DNA of 64,000 bases from Minisyncoccota bacterium (GTDB lineage: Bacteria; Patescibacteriota; Minisyncoccia; Phycocordibacterales; UBA2100), in assembly GCA_035559235.1 (NCBI GenBank), contig DATMBM010000004.1, positions 4,684 to 68,683 of the forward strand. The letters run 5' to 3'. Positions 1 to 64,000 of the stretch are shown here, one piece after another. A program made the translations under genes and the position numbers. Below the pieces are notes generated by a model that saw only the letters and a list, made by a program, of their open reading frames with translations, was not told the DNA's origin and searched no databases. The number at the start of each line of letters is the position of its first letter. Position 1 is the stretch's first letter.

Positions 1-6915
<6,915 letters not shown>

Positions 6916-13430: not shown

Positions 13431-14360
13431 ATGGCCCGCACGGTAAAAGAAGTGAACGATATGCCGCCCTTGGAGGCCTATAAGCCATTTGAGGGCGATG
13501 AGGCCGCAATTGAAGAGCGCCTGTGGCCGTTCGAGGAGGTCGAGCCCGAGGCGAAAATACCGATTTCGCACTGGAGCCATTCATCGCTTATGGCGTACCT
13601 CCGCAACCCGCTTGCCTGGTACAAGCGGTATGTCGAGCGCGTCTACGACATGCCAGTTACCCCCTCGTCGGTCGTCGGTCGTGCGGGACACGTAGCACTA
13701 CAGCATTTTTATAGCGGCATCCCGAAAGAAGGCGCGATCGACCTCGGGCTTGAATATTTGCGCGGCGTGCCCGATTTCGAGATCAACTTCGGCGTCGCGA
13801 AGACGAAGAAGGCGAAAAAAGAGAAGCGTCTCGGCATGGAGCGGGAATACCTGCAGGCAATCAATTTCTATCTTGCCAAGCCGCCGAAATACGACGTTGT
13901 CGATGTTGAAATCAAGGCGACGGCAACCGTAAAGGGCCTGGCGCTTCCGATCAAGGCCGTTTCCGACCTCGTCGTGCGATCAAAGGTGGACAAAAAGGCC
14001 CTTGATGTCGTCGACCATAAATTCGTCGAGTCGTTTTCGAAACACGGGAAAAACAAGACGCTTTTCGTGATGCAGGCGCTGTTCAATTACTACACGGTCA
14101 CCGAAACGTATCGGCAACCTGTGCGACGATTTATCCTGCACGAGTGCAAGAAGACGAAGAACAAAGACGGCTCATCGCAACTGAAGCGCTACGTAATCGA
14201 ATACGAAAAATGCGCGCGCGAATTCGAGCTGTTCAGACAGCTGGTCAACGATGCGACGGACGATCTCGCAAGACGAAAAGTGTTCCTCCCGAACCCCTCC
14301 GACATGTTTGAGGGTGAGAACTCGTTTGATATTTATCGGTTGGGGCTGGCGAGCGACTAG
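13431..14360 (+). CDS. PD-(D/E)xK (RecB/Cas4-like) nuclease-fold protein without the C-terminal 4-Cys cluster
   Basis: N-terminal HWSHSSLMAYLRNPLAWYKRYV resembles the RecB-family nuclease motif I region. D…D/E-x-K candidates are AVSDLVV…DVVDHKF. Only two Cys residues are present. Confidence 0.5.
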   Translation: MARTVKEVNDMPPLEAYKPFEGDEAAIEERLWPFEEVEPEAKIPISHWSHSSLMAYLRNPLAWYKRYVERVYDMPVTPSSVVGRAGHVALQHFYSGIPKEGAIDLGLEYLRGVPDFEINFGVAKTKKAKKEKRLGMEREYLQAINFYLAKPPKYDVVDVEIKATATVKGLALPIKAVSDLVVRSKVDKKALDVVDHKFVESFSKHGKNKTLFVMQALFNYYTVTETYRQPVRRFILHECKKTKNKDGSSQLKRYVIEYEKCAREFELFRQLVNDATDDLARRKVFLPNPSDMFEGENSFDIYRLGLASD

Positions 14361-15127
14361 AGAAGAGAATCAATCAATCCCTTCACCATGTCGTAGGGTT
14401 GTGCGCCTTCGAGCGGGATCTGCTCACCATCGACGATAAGGACCGAGTGCGGGGTGCCTTGACCACCCGCGGCAACGGCTTCTGCGGCATCTGCATCGAC
14501 GCGCGCCTTGTGCTTCCCGCTAGCGACACATGCCTCGAACTGCGCGACATTGAGCCCAAGCTCCTGCGCAAAGTCAGAAAGCTGGCCGGCGTCGGTAGAC
14601 GAGCGCGGTTCTCGTTCCGTGTACCGCGGCTTCCCGTCTTGTCCCACCGGAATCGTCTCCGGCGTGTTGTAAACGCCGATATCGAGCGAGTTGTTGGCAT
14701 TTGTCCGCTCGTAGAGCATATCGGTAAATTTCCAGAACATTTCATTGCCTCCTTGTTCGGCAGCGCATTCCAGTGCCTCAGCCTGCTTCGGCGCCTTCGG
14801 GTGGAGCGAGGGAATCGGGAAGTGTCGATAGACCCACGCGACATCCCCTGAAGCCCCGTATTCGGAGATGATGCGGTTCATTGTCGTATGGAATTGTTTG
14901 CAGAACGGGCATTCGGTGTCGGAAAATTCAACGACTACGATTTTGGCGTTCGGATTGCCCTTGATGTGGTCATCCTGTTGCACGGTGCGGATTTCTTCCT
15001 GGACGGTCGGCTGGATACCGTTATTCGCCGCGACGGGGCGCGAATTGACGAGGTAGAGCGAGACAGCGATCATTGCGCCCGCGATGATAATCGAGATGGG
15101 TACGGCCATTTTTTGGAGAAATTCCAT
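14357..15127 (-). CDS. DsbA-family thiol:disulfide oxidoreductase, membrane-anchored
   Basis: N-terminal TM helix and a thioredoxin fold with CPFC active site (FSDTECPFCKQFH). Confidence 0.8.
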   Translation of the reverse strand: MEFLQKMAVPISIIIAGAMIAVSLYLVNSRPVAANNGIQPTVQEEIRTVQQDDHIKGNPNAKIVVVEFSDTECPFCKQFHTTMNRIISEYGASGDVAWVYRHFPIPSLHPKAPKQAEALECAAEQGGNEMFWKFTDMLYERTNANNSLDIGVYNTPETIPVGQDGKPRYTEREPRSSTDAGQLSDFAQELGLNVAQFEACVASGKHKARVDADAAEAVAAGGQGTPHSVLIVDGEQIPLEGAQPYDMVKGLIDSLL

Positions 15128-20259: not shown

Positions 20260-20793
20260 ATGGGTCTCTTTGTTACGAACCTCTATCTTGGCTACGCCGC
20301 CCTCGGACTCCAAATTGCGACTATCGCGCTGCTTGCTGTATTCGTTGTAAGGGCGCGTTTTGAGACGTTTACAAAGCTTGCCACGATTGTCGGCAGATGG
20401 GGCCTGTGGCTTGGGTTTGCCGCAGCGTTGTTTGCAGCGCTCGCCAATCAGTATTACAACCAAGTCCTCGAGATTCCTCCGTGCGATCTGTGTTGGTGGG
20501 GGCGTATTTTCTTGTACCCGCAGATCATTCTCCTCGGTATGGCCGCATGGAAACGTGACAGCTATATGGCTGAATATTCCATCGTTCTCTCAGTGATCGG
20601 CGCCGGGATTTCCCTGTACCATCATTTTCTGCAGATGTTCCCGGATTCGCTCCCGTGCCCGGCGACGGGTGTTTCTTGTGCGCAGCGTTTCCTGTTCGAG
20701 TTTGGCTACATCACATATCCGTTGATGGCGTTCTCGCTCTTTGCGTTCTTGATCATCGTGATGCTTTTTGTTCGCGCTCGACGTGGGATGTAA
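20260..20793 (+). CDS. DsbB/BdbC-family disulfide bond formation protein B
   Basis: Four TM helices with periplasmic Cys pairs (PPCDLCWW and CPATGVSC), as in DsbB/BdbC. AGGAG Shine-Dalgarno upstream. Confidence 0.7.
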   Translation: MGLFVTNLYLGYAALGLQIATIALLAVFVVRARFETFTKLATIVGRWGLWLGFAAALFAALANQYYNQVLEIPPCDLCWWGRIFLYPQIILLGMAAWKRDSYMAEYSIVLSVIGAGISLYHHFLQMFPDSLPCPATGVSCAQRFLFEFGYITYPLMAFSLFAFLIIVMLFVRARRGM

Positions 20794-25892: not shown

Positions 25893-28856
25893 ATGAAAAT
25901 TACGCATCCGTACCTCATGAAAATCGCGAGCATCATTACAGTGTTCGTGCTTGTGTCCGTCTATACGATGCCGCTCATTACGGTGCACGCGGAAGGCGAA
26001 GGAGGCGGCGAATCATCGTCGGTTGGTGGCTCGGGAGGTGATGGCGGCAGTGGTGGAAGCGGAGATACGGGAGGCGCCGGTGGCAACGCCGGAGGCGGAG
26101 GAGACGCGAACAGCTCGTCTTCGGGCGACAGTTCTTCGACTGCCGGAGGAGGCGGTACCGGGGGCAGTGGCGGGGACAGCACCGGCGGAGGATCAAGCGG
26201 AACAGGAGGTGATGGCGGTGAAGGAGGCGCCGGCGGGAACGCGCAAGACACTTCTAATGGCGGCTCATCGGAAGCAACTGGCGGCAACGGCGGCGACGGC
26301 GGCAGTGGCGGTAATGCCGAAGGAAATGGCACCGCAGGTAGCGGAGGAACTGGCGCGGGAGGAGGAGATGCCAATGCGAACTCAAATACAGACAACGGAT
26401 CAGACGCATCAGCAGATGCGCAAGGCGGCAATGGCGGAGGTGGGGGAAGTGGTGGTGATGGCACTGGTGCCAATGCAGACGGCGGCAACGGCGGCGACGC
26501 CGGAACGGGGGGCGATGCGAACGGGAATGCCAACGCCAACGGTGGTGGGGACGCCGATGCGGGAGCGACCGGAGGCGACGGAGGAAGCGGTGGTGACGGT
26601 GGTTCAGGCGGGGACGCCAATGGTGCAACACCCGACGGCGCACCAACGACGATCGCTACAGGCGATGCGAATTCCTCGGCGAGCGCTGGTGGAAGTTCGA
26701 ACACGACTGATGCGACAGTCCCGCTCGGTAATGAGGCGAACGATGACGAGACTGAGCTCAAACTTGAAAACGTGCTCGGCGCAACGACTACCGCAACGTC
26801 GACGGCGGAAACGGGAGAGAACGTGATCGAAGAGGCTGAAGACGGGACCATCCTCACCGGCGCGGCAAACGCCTTCAGCTGGATTTTCGCGCTCTTCAAC
26901 GTTGCAGTCGTGAATTCGACCGGCTCCATCCATTTCTATAAAAATCCGGTCGGTGAAGCGTTGAATTTCACCCAGCGATTCGTTGACGCATTCCGTAACA
27001 TGGCGCGCGACGGCGCATGCTCGCTCGTCCGCTGCGACGGAATCGACGGCGTCGTCCTCAAGGTGTACAACGAAAACGTCGCAAATGTCGAAAATGTCGC
27101 CGTGTCCCGCGCTCAGTCGGGCGGCAACGATTGCAGCAGCACCGACGGGACTTGTGAAATCGGGACCGGAGACACCGACGCGATGTCGGGTATCGTAAAC
27201 GTCGGTAACCTCACGATGGTTGATTCGCGCTACCTCCTCCTCTTTATGGCAAATCAGGGTGACCTTGACGGAGACATCCTGCTGCCGGACGGCGCATTCT
27301 TCGAATCGCTCTCGACGGGCGCCCGCATCGGTCGTGCAAGTGATATCGAAGCGTCATCGACCGCAGAAATCATCGACACGGCATCCTCGACCGCCGAAAC
27401 CGGCGCCAATACGGCGATTGGCCCCGAAGGCTCTGTAATCGAGACCGGTGATGCGAACGCGCATGCATCCGACATAAACTTCGTAAACCAGCTCGGTGCG
27501 CCGATCTGCTTCATCGTCGCCGTTGGGGGTGAGTGGCGCGGCGACGTCGTGCAGTTACCAGGCATGTTCTCGCACGAAAGCGCGCCATTTGGCGAAATCA
27601 TCTGTGGTGCCGGAGGCTCCTCGCGCGATCCCGTAACTGGTCTGGAACTAGAAGTGGAAAACTACGCAAAAATCTTCAACACGGCGATCGCTGAGGCGGT
27701 CAGCGGCAACAACGAAGCGCAAGGTCTCCTGGCGAAAATCAAGACGGGTGACGCGAGCGCCTTCGCGCAAATCCTCAACCTCGTCAACGTAACGCTTATC
27801 GGACAGGACTGGATCTTCGCCAACTTTGCGATTTCCGGCGATTGGGACGGCGATCTGGTCTTCGGCGTGAAGCCGGGCGAGGACGACATCCTCGGTGACC
27901 TCATCGAGGAGCACGTTCTCGGCGTCTCCGGCGGCAGTGCAAGCGTCTGGAACCACCCGGAACCTAAAATCACCATGGTAAAGACAGCCGATGTCGAACA
28001 GGCGATGTCTCCAGCGACTGTTAATTACACGATCGTCGTGAACAACAACGGCGGTGACGCAACAGACGTCGTCGTTGTCGACACCATGAAGGGTCCGGAC
28101 GGCTCCGTAATCGGCAAGCAGATGTGGAAACTTGGGAATGTGAAGAGTAAGGAAGAAGTGAAAATCACCTACACGGTCGAATTCAAAGGCGATGTGACGA
28201 CGGGCTACTACACCAACACCGCAGTCCTCACCGGCAAGCGAAGCACCGGCAGCAGCCTCACCAAGGTGACTGCAACCGACGTGGTTGAAGTTGGCGTAGC
28301 CGAAGTGCTTGGGGAATCCTGCGCACCGATCCTGACCGAATACATCCGGCCGTGGCGCACAAATTCGCCGGAACAAGTCCGCTCGTTGCAGTCCTTCCTC
28401 AATGCCTACGAAGGAGAAACGCTTGCGGAGACCGGCGTGTACAATAGTGCGACGCAAGCAGCGGTGAAGCGCTTCCAGGGCAAATATGCGAGCGATATCT
28501 TGGCTCCATGGGGCATCTCGCAGCCGACCGGCAACGTCTACTACACGACCCAGAAAAAGGTTAACCAGATGGCGTGCGCCGACATCGACTTCTCGCTGAC
28601 ACCCGCACAGATCGCTGAAATCGAATCCTTCAAGGCGTCAACGAAGCAGAAGCAAGAGCAGACGATCCAGGAGGGCAATACCGGTGTGACGCCGAAGCAC
28701 CTGCTGGAGTTGCCGTTCGTTGCCGCGCCGGTTTTCTTCAAGACGGATGCGTCGCAAGGTCAGCCGGCATCGACGTCGGCGCTGCTCCAGCAGCAGTTGA
28801 AAGTCTTCGCATCATGGCTAGTGTTCGCGCCGCTTGTTGAAGCGTTCGAGATATAA
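25893..28856 (+). CDS. Large cell-surface protein: signal peptide, a Gly-rich region of about 230 aa, five TGDAxA…VN motif units, a DUF11-like domain and a C-terminal PG-binding-like domain
   Basis: 987 aa. The DUF11-like stretch is TIVVNNNGGDATDVVVVDTM. The C-terminus is homologous to that of the 23300 gene (QVRSLQSFLNAYEG…VKRFQGKYASDILAPWGISQPTGNVYYTTQKKVN). Confidence 0.7.
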   Translation: MKITHPYLMKIASIITVFVLVSVYTMPLITVHAEGEGGGESSSVGGSGGDGGSGGSGDTGGAGGNAGGGGDANSSSSGDSSSTAGGGGTGGSGGDSTGGGSSGTGGDGGEGGAGGNAQDTSNGGSSEATGGNGGDGGSGGNAEGNGTAGSGGTGAGGGDANANSNTDNGSDASADAQGGNGGGGGSGGDGTGANADGGNGGDAGTGGDANGNANANGGGDADAGATGGDGGSGGDGGSGGDANGATPDGAPTTIATGDANSSASAGGSSNTTDATVPLGNEANDDETELKLENVLGATTTATSTAETGENVIEEAEDGTILTGAANAFSWIFALFNVAVVNSTGSIHFYKNPVGEALNFTQRFVDAFRNMARDGACSLVRCDGIDGVVLKVYNENVANVENVAVSRAQSGGNDCSSTDGTCEIGTGDTDAMSGIVNVGNLTMVDSRYLLLFMANQGDLDGDILLPDGAFFESLSTGARIGRASDIEASSTAEIIDTASSTAETGANTAIGPEGSVIETGDANAHASDINFVNQLGAPICFIVAVGGEWRGDVVQLPGMFSHESAPFGEIICGAGGSSRDPVTGLELEVENYAKIFNTAIAEAVSGNNEAQGLLAKIKTGDASAFAQILNLVNVTLIGQDWIFANFAISGDWDGDLVFGVKPGEDDILGDLIEEHVLGVSGGSASVWNHPEPKITMVKTADVEQAMSPATVNYTIVVNNNGGDATDVVVVDTMKGPDGSVIGKQMWKLGNVKSKEEVKITYTVEFKGDVTTGYYTNTAVLTGKRSTGSSLTKVTATDVVEVGVAEVLGESCAPILTEYIRPWRTNSPEQVRSLQSFLNAYEGETLAETGVYNSATQAAVKRFQGKYASDILAPWGISQPTGNVYYTTQKKVNQMACADIDFSLTPAQIAEIESFKASTKQKQEQTIQEGNTGVTPKHLLELPFVAAPVFFKTDASQGQPASTSALLQQQLKVFASWLVFAPLVEAFEI

Positions 28857-52969: not shown

Positions 52970-54778
52970 ATGGGAAACAGAGTGACGGCAGCTTCTCTTA
53001 TCAGCATTGTATTCGCCACGCTGCTCGTGGCGTTTGTGTTTACTCCCGCACCTGCTGCAGCGGCGCGCGGTGATGCGCATCGGTCGTTTGCTGAAAGCAT
53101 CATCGATCGGATCAACGATCGTTTGTGCGATAGACAAAAAGCACTTGGCGGTCGTTTGCCGATCCCGCTTATCCACCCGAGCAAGTGTAAAAAGGAACCG
53201 CCCCCGCCTCCAGAAGAGCCGACAGTGGTTTTGACGGCGGATCCGCTCACGATCAACGAAGGTGACAGTTCGACCTTGGAATGGACGTCCGAAAACGCCG
53301 ATACCTGCGAGGCATCAGGCGGATGGGACGGCGAGCGGAACACCTCGGGTACGGAAGTGGTATCTCCATCAGAAACGACGATGTACCACATCGATTGCTT
53401 TGGGCCCGGCGGTGTCGCGGGCGATGACGTCGTCGTGACGGTGATCCCGGATGAACCAGACGCACCGACAGTTGAGATTACTGCAGATCCGATGACGATT
53501 ACGGAAGGCGAATCGTCGGAACTCTCGTGGAATTCTGAGAATGCTGACACCTGTACAGCCTCAAACGGATGGATCGGTGATAGGGCGCTGGATGGCACAG
53601 AAGTAGTAACTCCGGCAACAACGACCACCTATGCGATTGAATGTGAGGGCGAGGGCGGCACTGCGCAAGATAGCGTGACTGTGACGGTCACTCCTGATGA
53701 ACCTGAAACTGGGACGCTTATTGTACGCAAGGTTGTCATTCGTGATGATGGCAATGACGCGGCAACGACGACCTTTTCGTTCGAAGTAAACGATGAAGAC
53801 CCGATTTTCTTCGACGATGATGGCGAAGTGCAGCTCACGCGTCCGGTGGGAACGTACACGATCAATGAGGGTGCGCACGACGGCTTTACGATGAGCACGA
53901 GCAATTGTGATGCTGTCGAACTCTCCGAGGGTGAGACCGAAATTTGCACGATTACGAACAACGACGAGGCGGAAGAACCGGAGACCGCCGTTCTTACGCT
54001 GGTGAAAGTTGTGGTTAATAACAACGGAGGAGAAGCAACCACGACAGATTGGACGCTCGTGGCGGACGGTCCGACCGATATTTCGGGCGTTACGGGCAGC
54101 GCGGCCGTGACCGAGGCGGTTGTTGAAGTGGGCAGCTACGATCTTTCGGAGACGAATGGTCCGGAGGGCTACACTGCATCGAACTTCGTCTGCCAGATCA
54201 ATGACGGTCCTGATGTTGCCGGTAACACGGTCGTATTGGAGGCGGGCGACGACGTCGTGTGTACGATTACAAATGATGATGAGGAAGAAGAGCAGGTCGG
54301 TACGCTTGTCATCAGTGAAGTTCTCTACAATCCCTCTGTTGCACAAGGAGTAGAGGCGGGGAACGAATGGGTGGAAATATTCAATGGGACGGCAGGGACG
54401 CTCAACCTCTCCGGATACTTTATCCAGGACAACAGTGAGACGTTCATCCTTCCGCAGGGAACGACGCTTGCGTCAGGTTCGTTCCTTCTGCTGACAGGAT
54501 CATCCACGACGGCTGACCTCTGGACAGTGCCGAGCAGCGCAACGTGGCTCGTCTTGCCCGGCTTCACGAGACAGCTCTCAAACGAAAATGACTCTGTTGA
54601 ATTATTTAACACCGCAAGTTCGTCTGTCGACGCGGTGTGCTGGGGGCCCAATGACAAAGCATTCGATTGCGATGCGCTCGTCGTCGATGACGGCGAATCC
54701 CTCGGCCGCATCGACAAATTCTTTGACACCGGGACGGCGGCAGATTGGCAGGCCCAAACGCCGAACCCCGGGGAGTAA
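52970..54778 (+). CDS. Surface protein: signal peptide, two Ig-like repeats, two Cna-B/prealbumin-like repeats and a C-terminal lamin-tail (LTD) domain
   Basis: Repeats LTADPLTINEGDSSTLEWTSENADTC and ITADPMTITEGESSELSWNSENADTC. Repeats TLIVRKVVIRDDGND… and TLVKVVVNNNGGE…. The LTD-like C-terminus reads LVISEVLYNP…EWVEIFNGT…LSGYFIQD. Confidence 0.65.
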   Translation: MGNRVTAASLISIVFATLLVAFVFTPAPAAAARGDAHRSFAESIIDRINDRLCDRQKALGGRLPIPLIHPSKCKKEPPPPPEEPTVVLTADPLTINEGDSSTLEWTSENADTCEASGGWDGERNTSGTEVVSPSETTMYHIDCFGPGGVAGDDVVVTVIPDEPDAPTVEITADPMTITEGESSELSWNSENADTCTASNGWIGDRALDGTEVVTPATTTTYAIECEGEGGTAQDSVTVTVTPDEPETGTLIVRKVVIRDDGNDAATTTFSFEVNDEDPIFFDDDGEVQLTRPVGTYTINEGAHDGFTMSTSNCDAVELSEGETEICTITNNDEAEEPETAVLTLVKVVVNNNGGEATTTDWTLVADGPTDISGVTGSAAVTEAVVEVGSYDLSETNGPEGYTASNFVCQINDGPDVAGNTVVLEAGDDVVCTITNDDEEEEQVGTLVISEVLYNPSVAQGVEAGNEWVEIFNGTAGTLNLSGYFIQDNSETFILPQGTTLASGSFLLLTGSSTTADLWTVPSSATWLVLPGFTRQLSNENDSVELFNTASSSVDAVCWGPNDKAFDCDALVVDDGESLGRIDKFFDTGTAADWQAQTPNPGE

Positions 54779-60799: not shown

Positions 60800-60837
60800 C
60801 ACGCCCGCGGCAACGTCCGCGGGCGTGAGTCTTTTTG
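60800..60837 (+). terminator. Rho-independent terminator
   Basis: CACGCCCGCGG-caacgt-CCGCGGGCGTG followed by agtCTTTTTG. Confidence 0.6.
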
Positions 60838-60855
60838 CACGATATACTTATTCAC

Positions 60856-61494
60856 ATGTCACACGTGCGAGAGGGACGCGCGCATGTCTCGTCCGGCGCG
60901 AGCCGAGGCGGGGCGGCTTTTGCGCATCCGCCACGAAATATCAAGGCGCTCGGCATCGAGCCTGCGATGAAAATTGCGGATTTCGGCGCCGGGAGCGGTG
61001 CGTACGTCATCGCGATTGCGGAGCACTTGGAAAACAGCGGTCGCGTGTACGCCGTTGACATTCAGAAAGACCTACTGCGGAGGATTCACACGGAGGCAGT
61101 TAAGCGCGGATTCAAGAATGTCGAAATCGTGTGGGGCGACCTTGAGATGCCCGAGGGTTCGAAAATTGCAGACGCATCGCTTGATCTGGTGCTCATTTCA
61201 AATCTATTGTTCCAGGTTGAAGACAAGCAGGCCGTTATCGAAGAAGGAAAACGCGTGATCAAGCCGGGAGGCCGCCTTGCCATTATCGATTGGTCGGAGA
61301 GTTTCGGCGGCATGGGTCCTATCAAGACAGCGGTCGTCACGAAAGAAGAAGTGCTTGCGCTGGCGCGGGAAAGTAGCCTTGTGTTCCAAAAAGAATTCCG
61401 TGCTGGCGCGCATCATTATGGACTGGTCTTTCGCAAAGAAGCGGGGCGGCGCGCTATCGGTGTGCAATCCAAGCGGGTTACAATGCGACCATGA
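60856..61494 (+). CDS. Class I SAM-dependent methyltransferase
   Basis: Motif I IADFGAGSGAYV and the post-I acidic residue (VYAVDI). A TATACT box at 60843-60848 lies 7 nt upstream of this ATG. Confidence 0.65.
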   Translation: MSHVREGRAHVSSGASRGGAAFAHPPRNIKALGIEPAMKIADFGAGSGAYVIAIAEHLENSGRVYAVDIQKDLLRRIHTEAVKRGFKNVEIVWGDLEMPEGSKIADASLDLVLISNLLFQVEDKQAVIEEGKRVIKPGGRLAIIDWSESFGGMGPIKTAVVTKEEVLALARESSLVFQKEFRAGAHHYGLVFRKEAGRRAIGVQSKRVTMRP

Positions 61495-62792
61495 AAACGG
61501 GAATGTCGATATTCCAGGTCATTCTTCTATGCGTCTTCGGCGCCTTCGCGATCGCTGGCATCCTGATTTTTGCCTTCCTCATCGGTTCAAGCAACAACTC
61601 TTCGATCGGTGAAGTCGTGCTCTGGGGCACGTTTGATGAGACCGCGGTCGTGACGGTCATGCGCCAGCTTTCGGAAAATGACGACCGCTTGCGGCAAATT
61701 ATCTACGTCGAGAAAAACCCGGATACATTCGAACAAGAACTCACGAGCGCGCTTGCCGCGGGGACCGGCCCCGATCTCTACATCCTCCGGCACGATTATG
61801 CGGTCATCGATGCACCGAAAATCGCATCGATCCCATACGAACAGTTTTCGCGTGAGCAATTCGACGACCTGTTCGTCGAAGCCGCGCAGCCGTTTCTCTC
61901 CGCAGACGGCGTCCTTGCGGTCCCGCTTGTCGTCGATCCGATTGTCATGTATTGGAACCGCGATTTGTTCGCAAACGCCGGGCTTGCCCGACCGCCCATC
62001 TTCTGGGACGAGCTGCAAGGCGTTGCGCGCGCAATCAGCAAGCGGAACGATGTCGGCTCTCTCGTACGCAGCGCCGTCGGGCTGGGCGAGTATGCGAATG
62101 TCACGCACGCGAAGAACATCATCGGCACCTTGATTTTGCAGGCGGGAGGATCGGTCACTGCGCGCGCCAGCGACGGCGTCTTGCAGCCGGCATTGCAAGC
62201 ACGCGGTACCACGATTGCGCAGCCGGCACAGAGCGCGGTTTCGTTTTATACAAGCTTCGCAAACCCGTCGCAGGATATCTACAGCTGGAATCGTTCGCAA
62301 AAGGAAAGTCGCGAAGCATTTGCTTCCGGCGATCTCGGCCTCTTCATCGGCCTCGCGAGCGACGAACCGCTTATCCGTCGTCAAAATCCCAACCTGAATT
62401 TCGGAGTGGCACCTCTGCCGCAGATACGCGATGCAGAGCGCTCGATTACTGGCGGTTATGCCTATGCATTTGCAGTCCCGCGTGCGTCGAAAAATCCGGA
62501 AGGCGCGCTCACGGCCGCGTACCTTCTCGCATCACCCGAAGCGTCGCGCGCGCTCTCTCTCGCATTTGGCGTCGCGTCGGCACGCCGCGACGTCCTTGCC
62601 GAACCTGCGCAGGGTATTGATGACCTCTTCAATAAAATGGCGATCATCGCGCGCCTGTGGGAAGATCCCAATCCACAGGCGACGGACCGGATATTCCGCG
62701 ATATGATTGAATCGATCACATCAGGCGCGGCGAAGATAACCGAAGCCCTTCAGCGCGCCGAGGCCGCGATGCGGGAAATTCAAACGCCATGA
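61491..62792 (+). CDS. Extracellular solute-binding protein (ABC transporter SBP family 1-like), membrane-anchored
   Basis: N-terminal anchor (IFQVILLCVFGAFAIAGILIF). The pattern PDLYILRHDYAVIDAPKIASIPYEQF…VVDPIVMYWNRDLFANAGL is typical of MalE-like SBPs. Confidence 0.7.
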   Translation: MKTGMSIFQVILLCVFGAFAIAGILIFAFLIGSSNNSSIGEVVLWGTFDETAVVTVMRQLSENDDRLRQIIYVEKNPDTFEQELTSALAAGTGPDLYILRHDYAVIDAPKIASIPYEQFSREQFDDLFVEAAQPFLSADGVLAVPLVVDPIVMYWNRDLFANAGLARPPIFWDELQGVARAISKRNDVGSLVRSAVGLGEYANVTHAKNIIGTLILQAGGSVTARASDGVLQPALQARGTTIAQPAQSAVSFYTSFANPSQDIYSWNRSQKESREAFASGDLGLFIGLASDEPLIRRQNPNLNFGVAPLPQIRDAERSITGGYAYAFAVPRASKNPEGALTAAYLLASPEASRALSLAFGVASARRDVLAEPAQGIDDLFNKMAIIARLWEDPNPQATDRIFRDMIESITSGAAKITEALQRAEAAMREIQTP

Positions 62793-63175
62793 AATCCATA
62801 CGGGCAGTACGCGCGAAAATATTCACTCTCATGATTCTTGCGTGGGCTGCGATGCTGCCAGCTTTCGCGATCGCGCAGACGACGAACTGCGGCGCCGGGC
62901 AGAAATGCCTGCAAAATCCACTGCGCTTTCCAAGTATCGAGCAATTCATTCAGGGCGTCCTGCAAGCGATTGTTATGATTGCACTACCCATCATCACGAT
63001 TTTTATTGTCTATGCGGGGTTCAAATATATTTCAGCACGTGGCAATCCCAGCAAAATCGGCGATGCACATAGGAATTTCATGTACGTTGCTATCGGCGCG
63101 GCGCTTATCCTCGGCGCCTGGGTGTTAGCAACTCTCATCGGCGGAACGGTGACGCAGCTCCTCGGCGGCAAGTAA
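62789..63175 (+). CDS. VirB2/TrbC-like (type IV secretion pilin-like) small membrane protein
   Basis: Signal peptide (MKSIRAVRAKIFTLMILAWAAMLPAFAIA), then two hydrophobic helices (LQAIVMIALPIITIFIVYAGFKYI and FMYVAIGAALILGAWVLATLIGG) and a short Gly tail. Confidence 0.5.
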   Translation: MKSIRAVRAKIFTLMILAWAAMLPAFAIAQTTNCGAGQKCLQNPLRFPSIEQFIQGVLQAIVMIALPIITIFIVYAGFKYISARGNPSKIGDAHRNFMYVAIGAALILGAWVLATLIGGTVTQLLGGK

Positions 63176-63177
63176 GT

Positions 63178-63552
63178 ATGGTACGCGCACTCGCTGTTGC
63201 CGTGATGTTTCTGCCGACGGTTGTGACAGCGGCTCCGCGGACGTTCGACCAGCTGATCGACCTCATCATCAGGCTCTTGAACGCCGGGATCGGGATCACG
63301 CTCATCCTCGGTATCGTCATCTATTTTTACGGTGTTGCGACATCGATCCCAAAGTTTAGGACTGACGATTCCGAGCGTCTGCGCGCTCACTTCGTCTGGG
63401 GGCTTTTGGCGCTTTTTGTCATGTTCAGCGTCTGGGGGATTCTTGCGCTCGTGCGCAATACGCTGTTTGCCGGCGGCGGGTACACGTTTAACAATAGCAC
63501 GACGGTGGTATGCGAAGGATCGTTTGAAGACTGCGTCTACGGCCAATTTTAA
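63178..63552 (+). CDS. Second pilin-like small membrane protein
   Basis: Signal peptide (MVRALAVAVMFLPTVVTAAP), then LIDLIIRLLNAGIGITLILGIVIYFYGVA and WGLLALFVMFSVWGILALV. The architecture matches the preceding gene. Confidence 0.45.
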   Translation: MVRALAVAVMFLPTVVTAAPRTFDQLIDLIIRLLNAGIGITLILGIVIYFYGVATSIPKFRTDDSERLRAHFVWGLLALFVMFSVWGILALVRNTLFAGGGYTFNNSTTVVCEGSFEDCVYGQF

Positions 63553-63554
63553 AT

Positions 63555-63761
63555 ATGACTGACCAGATGGAGGTTTTGCTCTACGCGCTTATCGGCATTT
63601 TCGGGGCGCTTTCGGTCATCGTCTTTCTTTGGGGTTTTGTCGTCTATCTTGCTCGGCTTGGGACAGAGCGGCGCGTCCTCGGTATACGCATCATGGAATG
63701 GGGGGTCGCACTCATCCTGACGGCGATCGCCCTGATTGGCGTACTTCGCTTTTTCGAATAA
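63555..63761 (+). CDS. Third small 2-TM protein of the tandem array
   Basis: LLYALIGIFGALSVIVFLWGFVVYLA and WGVALILTAIALIGVL. Confidence 0.4.
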   Translation: MTDQMEVLLYALIGIFGALSVIVFLWGFVVYLARLGTERRVLGIRIMEWGVALILTAIALIGVLRFFE

Positions 63762-63860
63762 CAAAGATATCCACATCTCGCACGGGGAAGCATTGCGGCG
63801 GCGGCCGGGCGCGGTACGATTACGCTATACTTAACGGGCAACCTAAGAGGACCTTACCTA

Positions 63861-64000
63861 TGCAATCGCGATCCATCGTTTCCGCTTCGGCACTCGGTGC
63901 AGGTGTCATGCTTTTGCCGTACTTGGCTTCAGCCCAGACGCTTCTCAATACCCTGGCGCTTGTCTCTACGTTCCTCAATTCGCTCGTATATCTCTTCATC
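63861..64000 (+). CDS. Fourth pilin-like gene, 3' end truncated by the window
   Basis: MQSRSIVSASALGAGVMLLPYLASAQTLLNTLALVSTFLNSLVYLFI… The frame is open to the window end. Confidence 0.35.

What the first reader, a model, noticed from the sequence alone, without database searches (positions are those of the whole stretch)
62789..64000. Tandem array of four or more small pilin-like genes (signal peptide plus two hydrophobic helices, VirB2/TrbC-like architecture)
Four consecutive small ORFs of about 65-130 aa each have a cleavable-looking signal peptide followed by two long hydrophobic helices and a short tail. The separate genes share little sequence beyond this architecture. This is the signature of conjugative or T4SS major pilins and of the small pilin-like paralog families found in ultra-small bacteria. 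The array runs off the end of the window, so more copies may follow. It sits right after a membrane-anchored solute-binding protein.
Basis: partly seen in the sequence, partly recalled or inferred. Interest (0 to 1): 0.55.

Follow-up and report, generated by a model that had tools for sequence, protein, structure and literature searches.

The report
Solute-binding-protein-linked VirB2-like pilin gene array
The end of this window holds a conserved operon from an ultra-small (Patescibacteria) bacterium in which a membrane-anchored sugar-binding protein is followed by five divergent conjugation-type (VirB2-like) pilin genes; such pilin arrays are already known in these bacteria, but the fixed five-gene set and its coupling to a binding protein have not been described in the papers I could search.

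Summary
The array is real. Window 62789-64000 holds P1 (128 aa), P2 (124 aa), P3 (68 aa) and the first 47 codons of P4. An identical public contig shows that P4 has 121 aa and that a fifth gene, P5 (108 aa), follows. P1 and P4 score above the Pfam cut-off for T4SS_pilin (PF18895), and P1 also for TrbC/VirB2. P2, P3 and P5 are clear paralogs of P4.

The array is part of a methyltransferase - solute-binding protein - P1-P5 operon. This gene order holds in about 80 species of Kaiserbacteria-like Paceibacteria. Low-GC relatives keep it with three pilin modules fused into one protein. No VirB4-like ATPase lies within 10 kb in any of 91 loci. Published tables report VirB4 elsewhere in 6 of 10 draft genomes that carry the operon.

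Pilin arrays in Patescibacteria are published (Wang 2023; Quinonero-Coronel 2025), so the kind is known. What seems new is the fixed set of paralogs, the coupling to the binding protein, and the separation from virB4. Whether these proteins build a T4SS pilus is inferred, not shown.

The parts
60800..60827 (+). Terminator-like GC-rich hairpin plus T run after gyrA and a small ORF. It probably marks the upstream boundary of the operon.
   Evidence: L001 2572-2599, 11-bp stem with 10 GC pairs and a T-rich tail. Window coordinate = L001 + 58228.
60835..61494 (+). Class I SAM-dependent methyltransferase (UbiE/ArsM-like), the first gene of the operon. Its stop overlaps the SBP start by 4 nt. The gene caller's start corresponds to window 60967.
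   Evidence: Pfam Methyltransf_31/11/25; NCBIfam. It sits directly upstream of the SBP in 62 of 77 species loci, with a 4-nt overlap in 33.
61491..62792 (+). Membrane-anchored extracellular solute-binding protein of the carbohydrate type. It is an orphan: no ABC permease or ATPase lies nearby. Its stop overlaps the P1 start (ATGA).
   Evidence: Pfam SBP_bac_1 at 73 bits and SBP_bac_8 at 65 bits. Best PDB relative is 4r9f 'MBP1', E 1.3e-13. TM helix at residues 1-35. No recurrent ABC ATPase in 91 loci. The TM anchor is conserved: 0.70 against 0.63 for the rest of the protein.
62789..63175 (+). P1: VirB2/TrbC-type pilin. Signal peptide (cleavage AIA|QT), a Cys pair (CGAGQKC), the LQNPL motif, and two hydrophobic helices joined by the loop ARGNPSKIGDAHRN.
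   Evidence: Pfam T4SS_pilin 47.5 bits and TrbC 41.4 bits. NCBI calls it 'pilin', HWO07123.1. AF2 helices 50-82 and 87-124, pLDDT 80. 497 homologs.
63178..63552 (+). P2: pilin paralog. Signal peptide (VTA|AP), a two-helix core, then a Gly-rich C-terminal tail with a Cys-x6-Cys pair.
   Evidence: HMM similarity to the P4 family E 7.6e-16 and to the P5 family E 2.2e-11. 34 % identity to P4, z 15.9. T4SS_pilin 12.3 bits, orthologs 18-20 bits.
63555..63761 (+). P3: the shortest and most variable paralog. It consists of the two helices only and has no signal peptide in this genome. Some orthologs do carry one.
   Evidence: hhalign of the P4 family against the P3 family gives 97 % probability, E 3.9e-11. 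Median identity across species 33 %.
63860..64000 (+). P4 (first 47 of 121 codons; the gene ends at window-equivalent 64225). It is the most conserved paralog, with a signal peptide (ASA|QT), a two-helix core and a conserved tail RVTSTEPVIPKTIQLDTRF. P5 (108 aa, no signal peptide) follows at window-equivalent 64257-64583, outside the window.
   Evidence: Pfam T4SS_pilin 27.9 bits, above the 26.6 cut-off. Median identity across about 79 species 68 %. AF2 hairpin with helices 19-63 and 66-102.

Best explanation
The region is the start of a five-gene set of VirB2/TrbC-superfamily (Pfam T4SS_pilin) pilin paralogs. It belongs to a chromosomal operon, methyltransferase - membrane-anchored sugar-type solute-binding protein - P1-P5, in a Kaiserbacteria-like member of the Paceibacteria (Patescibacteria/CPR).

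Shown here:
- The genes are real.
- They belong to the T4SS_pilin family.
- Their order and their one-to-one orthology hold across about 80 species.

Inferred mechanism:
- Each protein inserts into the cytoplasmic membrane as a helical hairpin, with N and C termini outside and the charged loop inside.
- Signal peptidase I trims P1, P2 and P4.
- The Dsb pair encoded in the window oxidises the outward-facing Cys pairs of P1 and P2.
- A VirB4-driven, monoderm-type T4SS encoded elsewhere in the chromosome then draws on this membrane pool to build a pilus or conduit made of several subunit types, used for contact or exchange with a host cell.
- The paralogs have distinct, non-redundant roles. P4 is the best candidate for the main structural subunit. 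P1 is a specialised first subunit. P3 and P5, which lack a signal peptide, are minor or membrane-proximal subunits.
- The co-translated solute-binding protein probably works with this structure, either as a glycan-binding adhesin or as a receptor for incoming host sugars.
For: Family:
- P1 and P4 score above the Pfam T4SS_pilin cut-off, and P1 also above the TrbC/VirB2 cut-off.
- 25 of 30 array members from six genomes hit PF18895 at E<=1.
- P2, P3 and P5 are paralogs of P4.
- Modules in low-GC relatives hit both the P1 and the P4 HMMs and so bridge the two groups.
- NCBIfam 'Mbov_0395 pilin-like conjugal transfer protein' hits P1 at E 1.4e-6.

Fold and topology:
- AF2 predicts helical hairpins.
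- Signal peptides and two hydrophobic helices are present.
- Cys pairs occur only in the predicted outside segments, and DsbA-like and DsbB genes are in the window.
- Fused proteins with three pilin modules joined by Gly-rich linkers require each module to be N-out and C-out.

Non-redundant roles:
- The order SBP-P1-P2-P3-P4-P5 holds in 67 of 91 loci. Each position is best matched by its own HMM.
- Conservation is graded: P4 68 %, P1 56 %, P5 46 %, P2 42 %, P3 33 %.

Operon:
- 4-nt ATGA overlaps link MTase to SBP and SBP to P1. Gaps of 2 nt separate P1, P2 and P3.
- A terminator-like hairpin lies upstream of the methyltransferase.

Link to T4SS:
- Homologous PF18895 pilin series lie inside the essential T4SS cluster of S. 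epibionticum (PMC10633639; its supplement).
- VirB2-like arrays are widespread in Patescibacteria (PMC12102498).
- VirB4 is reported in 6 of 10 draft genomes that carry this operon.
Against: - No VirB4, VirB6, VirD4 or PrgI gene was found in the 64-kb window among the 37 ORFs scanned (the large ORFs judged likely genes, plus a few smaller ones). None lies within +-10 kb of the array in 91 loci. The only large Walker-A proteins there are IF-2 and ClpB, plus one 705-aa protein in L088 that I did not identify.
- 4 of 10 cassette-bearing draft genomes are listed without VirB4. These are incomplete MAGs, and the dataset-wide rate is 80 %.
- P2, P3 and P5 fall below the Pfam cut-off on their own.
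- The P1-versus-P4 profile comparison is weak (P 6.7e-4, probability 27 %).
- Structure and sequence searches of the PDB gave no pilin match.
- No pilus of this type has been seen on any Patescibacterium, according to the papers read.
- The tight, conserved coupling to an orphan SBP has no precedent in T4SS biology.
Confidence: 0.6

Rival explanations
1. A T4SS-independent membrane complex that depends on the SBP. The five two-helix proteins (10 TM helices in all; 6 in the fused three-module forms) assemble with the TM anchor of the solute-binding protein into a channel or uptake device for host-derived carbohydrates. On this reading the pilin fold has been co-opted and no pilus is made.
For: - The SBP is an orphan. 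No ABC permease or ATPase lies nearby in 91 loci or in the Pfam-annotated contexts.
- It is translationally coupled to P1.
- The SBP-pilin link persists across lineages of 34-60 % GC.
- The array is never next to virB4.
- 4 of 10 draft genomes are listed without VirB4.
- The sequence of the SBP's TM anchor is conserved.
- Fused 6-TM triple modules exist.
- P4's exposed tail is highly conserved rather than variable.
Against: - The family is homologous to pilins that sit inside T4SS clusters in other classes.
- There is no energy-coupling component in the operon.
- No transporter built from VirB2-like hairpins is known.
- Absence of VirB4 in draft MAGs is weak evidence.
Confidence: 0.2
2. An array of redundant, interchangeable major pilins used for antigenic or host-range variation. 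This is the role proposed for Bartonella and Anaplasma VirB2 paralogs and suggested for Patescibacteria arrays in PMC12102498.
For: - Paralog identity is low (19-34 %), in line with the published array average of 25 %.
- P2 and P3 are fairly variable between species.
Against: - Each position has its own ortholog in about 80 species in a fixed order. There is little copy-number change and no sign of recent duplication or recombination.
- P4 is 68 % and P1 56 % identical across species.
- The paralogs differ in architecture, such as signal peptide present or absent, Cys tails and a conserved P4 tail. That points to division of labour.
- Three modules are fused into one protein in relatives.
Confidence: 0.1
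3. Unrelated small hydrophobic proteins, type IV pilus (T4P) pilins, or chance ORFs that only mimic the VirB2 architecture.
For: - Two-helix hydrophobic proteins attract weak, non-specific HMM hits such as DUF973, MASE1 and Ion_trans.
- Foldseek finds only generic helical hairpins.
Against: - Scores are above the cut-off for P1 and P4.
- T4SS_pilin is by far the most consistent hit, in 25 of 30 and 40 of 40 members.
- The genes are conserved across about 80 species.
- None of the five N-termini has a class III (G|F..E) prepilin signal (read directly).
- The 178-aa antisense ORF at 63010-63546 has no support.
Confidence: 0.03

Closest known systems
Pilin series SEML1_0014-0019 in the T4SS cluster of Candidatus Southlakia epibionticum (Saccharibacteria); Wang et al. 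2023, PMC10633639
   Same: - Six tandem small proteins that hit PF18895 (some also PF04956) in a monoderm Patescibacterium.
- The sequences are divergent but the fold is shared.
- Only one member is named 'pilin' by the annotation pipeline and the rest are 'hypothetical'. Here too, only P1 is named.
   Different: - There the array lies inside the virB4/virB6/prgI cluster and was shown by Tn-seq to be essential.
- Here the array is at least 10 kb from any T4SS gene, follows a methyltransferase and an SBP, and has no functional data.
- It also belongs to a different class (Paceibacteria).
VirB2-like pilin arrays of Patescibacteria catalogued by Quinonero-Coronel et al. 2025 (PMC12102498)
   Same: - Tandem arrays of 2-11 VirB2-like genes detected with PF04956/PF18895, with a mean paralog identity of about 25 %.
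- The present array fits that description.
   Different: - That survey used i-Evalue <0.001 for single proteins. With that rule only P1 and P4 would be called here, and they are separated by two genes, so this locus may have been missed as an array.
- The survey reports arrays mainly in Microgenomatia and Saccharimonadia.
- It does not mention an SBP or methyltransferase partner ('solute-binding' occurs 0 times).
- It proposes host-range variation. The fixed orthology found here argues for distinct roles instead.
VirB2 (Agrobacterium T pilus) / TrbC (RP4), Pfam PF04956
   Same: - A signal peptide, two hydrophobic helices and a short charged loop.
- P1 aligns over the whole TrbC model (1-97 of 98) at 41.4 bits.
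   Different: - Those pilins belong to diderm T4SSs, are encoded inside the virB/trb operon and are cyclised.
- They have one major pilin plus VirB5, not five paralogs.
- No sequence or fold match to solved pilins was recovered here.
Mbov_0395 / MMCAP2_0565 pilin-like conjugal transfer protein of Mycoplasma ICEs (NCBIfam NF045849)
   Same: - A small two-helix pilin-like protein of a monoderm (MPF-FATA-type) conjugation system.
- P1 matches positions 9-79 of the 80-position model at E 1.4e-6, and P2 at E 4.9e-3.
   Different: - The scores (27.8 and 16.5 bits) are below the family cut-off of 40, so these are not members.
- The Mycoplasma protein is a single gene on a mobile element, not a chromosomal array.
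VirB2 paralog clusters of Bartonella and Anaplasma T4SSs
   Same: Tandem, divergent VirB2 copies (cited in PMC12102498).
   Different: - Those are thought to be variable and interchangeable surface antigens of pathogens of animals.
- Here the copies are individually conserved orthologs in a fixed order.

Membership tests
Pfam T4SS_pilin (PF18895) / TrbC-VirB2 (PF04956) superfamily | Score above the curated gathering cut-off of the family HMM | tested here: met
   - P1 scores 47.5 bits (cut-off 26.6) and 41.4 bits on TrbC (cut-off 27.9).
- P4 scores 27.9 bits.
- P2 (12.3), P3 (12.2) and P5 (15.4) fall below the cut-off on their own. They join the family through P4: HMM E 1e-11 to 1e-16 and hhalign 97 %.
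Pfam T4SS_pilin (PF18895) / TrbC-VirB2 (PF04956) superfamily | Architecture: cleavable signal peptide, then two hydrophobic helices joined by a short charged loop | tested here: met
   - The two-helix core is present in all five proteins.
- A signal peptide is present in P1, P2 and P4 and absent in P3 and P5.
- Some P3 orthologs carry one.
Functional T4SS pilin (VirB2 role) | Encoded with, or at least in the same genome as, a VirB4-type T4SS | tested here: inconclusive
   - It is not linked: no VirB4-like ATPase lies in the window or within +-10 kb in 91 loci.
- The rest of this genome could not be read.
- Table S1 of PMC12102498 lists VirB4 in 6 of 10 cassette-bearing draft genomes.
Functional T4SS pilin (VirB2 role) | Polymerises into an extracellular pilus; processing such as cyclisation | not testable with these tools
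   This needs microscopy, proteomics or mass spectrometry. The monomer AF2 models say nothing about polymerisation.
Patescibacterial VirB2-like pilin array (as defined in PMC12102498) | Two or more VirB2-like genes in tandem or separated by one non-pilin gene, with low identity between paralogs | tested here: met
   - There are five adjacent paralogs at 19-34 % identity.
- Under that paper's own single-protein E-value rule only P1 and P4 would pass.
Type IV pilus (T4P) / T2SS pseudopilins | Class III signal peptide (G|F/M xxx E) followed by a single N-terminal hydrophobic helix and a globular domain | tested here: not met
   No such motif occurs in any of the five N-termini. All five have two hydrophobic helices and no globular domain.
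VirB3 / PrgI small T4SS membrane proteins | Match to Pfam VirB3 (PF05101) or PrgI (PF12666) | tested here: not met
   Neither family appears in the per-protein hit tables shown for the five window proteins and eight orthologs, nor among the 25 most frequent of the 55 families hit by the 30 array members (the other 30 families were not listed). The CONJScan profiles were not available.
ABC importer substrate-binding protein (for the upstream gene) | SBP fold, plus adjacent permease and ATPase genes | tested here: inconclusive
   - The fold is met: SBP_bac_1 at 73 bits and PDB 4r9f at E 1e-13.
- Partner genes are absent nearby in the window and in 91 loci.
- Partners elsewhere in the genome could not be checked.

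The most novel reading that the evidence does not exclude
The methyltransferase-SBP-pilin cassette is a self-contained surface apparatus of Paceibacteria. A membrane-anchored sugar-binding protein is physically coupled to a structure built from five distinct VirB2-like hairpins. That structure works either as a conduit attached to the T4SS or as a membrane channel independent of it, and serves to take up host-derived carbohydrates. This would give the so far 'completely unknown' function of patescibacterial T4SS pilins a concrete role in nutrient import.
Probability: 0.15. Interest if true: 0.8.

Novelty: new variant of a known kind. Interest (0 to 1): 0.45.

Why it matters
Patescibacteria make up a large share of bacterial diversity and depend on host cells. 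Their T4SS is essential in the one species tested, yet its role is called 'completely unknown' (PMC11665869), and export, DNA uptake and nutrient uptake have all been proposed. A pilin set in a fixed order, translationally coupled to an orphan carbohydrate-type binding protein in about 80 species and in distant relatives, gives a concrete hypothesis to test: binding protein plus pilin structure acts as a device for host contact or uptake. It also shows that single-protein HMM cut-offs under-count pilin paralogs. Only 1 of the 5 genes here is annotated. Finally, the arrays are not simply variable copies, and fused three-module pilins suggest that different paralogs sit next to each other in the assembled structure.

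Tried and rejected
- Reading the rest of the source contig (NCBI, 69,448 bp). The look-up returned only a 6.4-kb Logan contig, which adds 654 nt beyond the window.
- Foldseek of the AF2 models of P4 and P1 against the PDB. The best E-values were above 1 and the matches were generic helical hairpins, so this was uninformative.
- Profile searches of PDB sequences with the P1 and P4 families. There was nothing relevant.
- tblastn of P1 and P4 against 72,556 plasmids. No match, so there is no sign of a mobile-element origin.
- Direct profile-profile comparison of P1 with P2, P3 and P5. It was weak or not significant. The link rests on Pfam and on bridging sequences.
- A conserved mRNA hairpin after P4, which could mark a major subunit. 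It is present here and in several loci but is not significant overall: median z -0.67, and 12 % of loci have z below -2.
- Looking up VirB4 status for the complete Kaiserbacteria chromosome CP066682.1 in Table S1. The stored file is truncated.
- Sigma-70 promoter scan of the operon. No hit.
- My first Pfam scan of the P4 fragment used the wrong frame (63861 instead of 63860), so its empty result means nothing.
- Considered and rejected: T4P pilins (no class III signal), holins (no phage context), ATP synthase c subunits (no match), VirB3/PrgI (no Pfam hit), and cargo of a mobile element (the synteny from gyrA to infB is conserved).
Full report
**What is in the sequence.**
On the + strand at the end of the window lie these ORFs:
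- a 433-aa ORF at 61491-62792
- P1 at 62789-63175 (128 aa)
- P2 at 63178-63552 (124 aa)
- P3 at 63555-63761 (68 aa)
- the first 47 codons of P4, from 63860 to the window end

The 433-aa protein is an SBP_bac_1/SBP_bac_8 solute-binding protein with an N-terminal TM helix. Its stop overlaps the P1 start (ATGA). P1, P2 and P3 are separated by 2 nt each, and about 100 nt precede P4.

A public Logan contig (L001) is identical to the window over the overlap (window = L001 + 58228) and runs 654 nt further. It completes P4 (121 aa) and adds P5 (108 aa).

The exact proteins are in NCBI as HWO07122-HWO07127 from a 'MAG TPA Candidatus Paceibacterota bacterium' contig of 69,448 bp. Only P1 is named 'pilin'. 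P2-P5 are 'hypothetical protein'.

**Check of the observation.**
The tandem array is real, but two details are wrong.
- A signal peptide with an AXA-type site is present in P1 (AIA|QT), P2 (VTA|AP) and P4 (ASA|QT). P3 and P5 begin directly with the first hydrophobic helix.
- The genes do share sequence.
  - P2, P4 and P5 are 32-34 % identical to one another, and P3 is 29 % identical to P4. Alignment scores for these four pairs lie 12-22 SD above shuffles.
  - P3's similarity to P2 and P5 is weaker (22-23 %, z 4-5).
  - A common motif runs through P2-P5 (F-x-W-G ... loop ... M-x-W/Y-G ... M-V-S-x-W/Y-G-I).
  - Only P1 is distant (19-30 %, z 0-4.8).
- The array has exactly five genes. In relatives the next genes are unrelated, and those annotated (NTP transferase, rbfA, infB) lie on the other strand.

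**Family assignment.**
- P1 scores 47.5 bits on Pfam T4SS_pilin (PF18895, cut-off 26.6) and 41.4 bits on TrbC/VirB2 (PF04956, cut-off 27.9).
- Full-length P4 scores 27.9 bits on T4SS_pilin, and all 40 P4 homologs tested hit it at E<=0.01.
- P2, P3 and P5 are below the cut-off individually (12-15 bits; most orthologs tested 13-22 bits, two P3 orthologs no hit).
- T4SS_pilin is nonetheless the most consistent hit, in 25 of 30 array members from six genomes.
- These three proteins match the P4-family HMM at E 1e-11 to 1e-16. hhalign gives 97 % for P4 against P3.
- The direct P1-versus-P4 profile comparison is weak but in register (P 6.7e-4). Pilin modules from low-GC relatives hit both HMMs and bridge the two groups.
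- NCBIfam's Mycoplasma-ICE 'pilin-like conjugal transfer protein' model hits P1 at E 1.4e-6, below its cut-off.
- AF2 predicts helical hairpins for P4 (pLDDT 75) and P1 (pLDDT 80).
- PDB sequence and fold searches returned nothing specific. For a two-helix protein this is uninformative.
- No class III prepilin signal is present, so these are not type IV pilus pilins.

**Context and conservation.**
The window is an ordinary chromosomal stretch. It carries a fused rpoB-rpoC, dnaG, rpoD, hisS, murJ, lepA, ftsA/ftsZ, lepB, pth and gyrA, at GC about 0.56. No T4SS or type IV pilus machinery gene was recognised among the 37 ORFs scanned. A weak PilM_2 hit lies on the FtsA protein.

A terminator-like hairpin at 60800-60827 precedes a class I methyltransferase (60835-61494), whose stop overlaps the SBP start.

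A scan of one genome per GTDB species with the P4 family returned 131 relatives, of which 80 loci were fetched. I mapped HMMs of SBP and P1-P5 onto these loci plus 11 metagenome loci.
- The order SBP-P1-P2-P3-P4-P5 is exact in 67 of 91.
- Most of the rest are cut contigs; a few lack P3, carry an extra pilin gene or call two genes in swapped order.
- The methyltransferase sits directly upstream in 62 of 77 species loci, with the 4-nt overlap in 33.
- Median identity to the window proteins is P4 68 %, P1 56 %, SBP 51 %, P5 46 %, P2 42 % and P3 33 %.

So this is an old, fixed set of five orthologous groups under purifying selection. It is not a fast-changing family of copies.

**Distant relatives.**
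An exhaustive profile search with the P4 family found 7,641 representative clusters at E<=1e-3. Many are single polypeptides with two or three pilin modules joined by Gly-rich linkers.

Three of the three-module proteins were looked up. All sit in the same cassette in low-GC (0.34-0.43) lineages:
- The shared core is methyltransferase - SBP - two P1-type genes - triple pilin - P4-type, with a P5-type gene lacking a signal peptide last or next to last.
- gyrA lies upstream where the contig reaches that far (L092, L094).
- L092 also has a 645-aa non-pilin gene inside the array.

In the one cassette tested gene by gene (L092), six of the seven pilin genes pass the Pfam cut-off. The precomputed Pfam marks on the other two cassettes also point to T4SS_pilin. 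The SBP-pilin coupling is therefore older than the Kaiserbacteria-like clade.

The fusions also imply that each module has both ends on the same (outer) side of the membrane, and that different paralogs sit side by side.

**Relation to a T4SS.**
- Across 91 loci (+-10 kb), the large Walker-A proteins are IF-2 and ClpB, plus one 705-aa protein in L088 that I did not identify. No VirB4- or VirD4-like family recurs, and there is no conserved ABC ATPase or permease for the SBP.
- P1 and P4 have no tblastn match in 72,556 plasmids.
- I could not read the rest of this genome.
- Table S1 of Quinonero-Coronel et al. lists VirB4 in 6 of 10 draft genomes that I found to carry the cassette. The rate across their dataset is 2,417 of 3,035. 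With incomplete MAGs this neither proves nor excludes dependence.

**What is known.**
- Wang et al. [quoted passage not shown] This is unusual because Gram-positive T4SSs lack pili. Their table shows SEML1_0014-0016, 0018 and 0019 hitting PF18895.
- Quinonero-Coronel et al. 2025 report VirB2-like pilins in 1,948 assemblies, near virB4 in 1,135 of them. They count 441 arrays of 2-11 genes with 25 % mean identity and suggest a role in adapting to different hosts.
- A 2025 review calls these the first pilin-bearing monoderm T4SSs.
- The role of the T4SS is described as 'completely unknown'.
- None of these texts mentions a solute-binding protein partner. A search for Kaiserbacteria plus pilin listed one paper, on glass-sponge microbiomes, whose title and abstract do not concern this.

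**Best explanation.**
- Shown: a conserved operon encoding a methyltransferase, a membrane-anchored carbohydrate-type SBP and five VirB2-superfamily hairpin proteins.
- Inferred:
  - The proteins insert through Sec/YidC with both termini outside. SPase I cleaves P1, P2 and P4 (lepB is in the window). Dsb enzymes oxidise the outer Cys pairs (DsbA-like and DsbB genes are in the window).
  - A VirB4 T4SS encoded elsewhere then assembles a pilus or conduit from several subunit types.
  - P4, the most conserved paralog with a conserved ...PVIPK... tail, is the likely main subunit. The others are specialised.
  - The SBP may act with the structure as an adhesin or receptor. Its TM anchor is at least as conserved as its globular part.
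- Confidence in the family assignment is about 0.9. Confidence in the T4SS-pilus mechanism is about 0.5-0.6.

**Rivals.**
- A T4SS-independent membrane complex coupled to the SBP (about 0.2).
- Interchangeable pilins for surface variation (about 0.1). The fixed orthology argues against this.
- Unrelated small proteins or type IV pilus pilins (below 0.05).

**Verdict.**
The variant is worth noting for four reasons:
- it is a fixed set of five paralogs
- four of the five genes are unannotated
- it is coupled to a methyltransferase and an orphan SBP
- it is separated from virB4

Fused multi-module forms occur in relatives.

Noticed in passing
window 61-6915 (+): A single 2284-aa ORF carries all RpoB domains (residues 3-1031) followed by the RpoC domains (1067-2162). 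This is an rpoB-rpoC fusion like those I recall (from memory, not checked here) in Helicobacter and Wolbachia.
   Followed up: no
L092 6239-7240; L094 10001-11011; L095 3343-4419 (also P0254, P0255, P0258, P0263, P0266, P0273): Single polypeptides of 300-360 aa consist of a signal peptide and three tandem T4SS_pilin modules joined by Gly-rich linkers. Two-module forms also exist. The three looked up sit in the same methyltransferase-SBP-pilin cassette in low-GC lineages.
   Followed up: partly
window 14357-15127 (-) and 20260-20793 (+): A DsbA-like thioredoxin and a DsbB gene are present. This fits the Cys pairs in the predicted outside segments of P1 (CGAGQKC) and P2 (C-x6-C in the tail).
   Followed up: partly
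L037 16794-17234; L039 12079-12516; L047 11889-12326; L058 19219-19605; L062 19276-19680: A further lone P1-type pilin gene with Cys-rich N-terminal part lies just downstream of clpB, about 9 kb from the array, in several relatives. No T4SS gene is next to it either.
   Followed up: partly
L001 6003-6021 (window-equivalent 64231-64249, just beyond the window): A perfect 8-bp GC-rich hairpin (GCGGCTGC-gta-GCAGCCGC) lies 5 nt after the P4 stop, inside the operon. Similar hairpins occur in several relatives, but the signal is not significant overall (median z -0.67).
   Followed up: yes
P4 residues 101-118 (window-equivalent 64160-64213); alignment A3: The C-terminal tail of P4-type pilins carries a strongly conserved motif (RVTSTxPVIPKxIQ, with P107 and P110 invariant in 40 sequences). 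I-P or A-I-P motifs recur in the tails of distant P4-type modules. It may be a processing or docking site.
   Followed up: no
window 61491-61600 (SBP residues 1-35): The TM anchor of the SBP is conserved in sequence (S.FQ..LL..FG..A..G.LIFA). The majority-residue fraction is 0.70, against 0.63 for the globular part, across 83 sequences. This hints at specific packing within the membrane.
   Followed up: partly
L006 and L007 (GCA_001781475.1, contigs MFLA01000001 and MFLA01000011): One NCBI MAG holds two diverged copies of the whole syntenic locus, from the methyltransferase through the array to infB. The bin therefore probably mixes two related populations.
   Followed up: no
window 63010-63546 (-): A 178-aa antisense ORF overlaps P1 and P2. 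It has no support and is almost certainly spurious, since the + strand proteins are the conserved ones.
   Followed up: partly
window 52970-54778 (+) and 25893-28856 (+): Two large predicted surface proteins are present. One has SpaA_2 prealbumin-like and Lamin-tail domains, and the other has DUF11/DUF7507 and a peptidoglycan-binding domain. Lamin-tail-domain (LTD) proteins also recur in the same upstream neighbourhood in relatives; the SpaA_2 domain is not recorded there.
   Followed up: no
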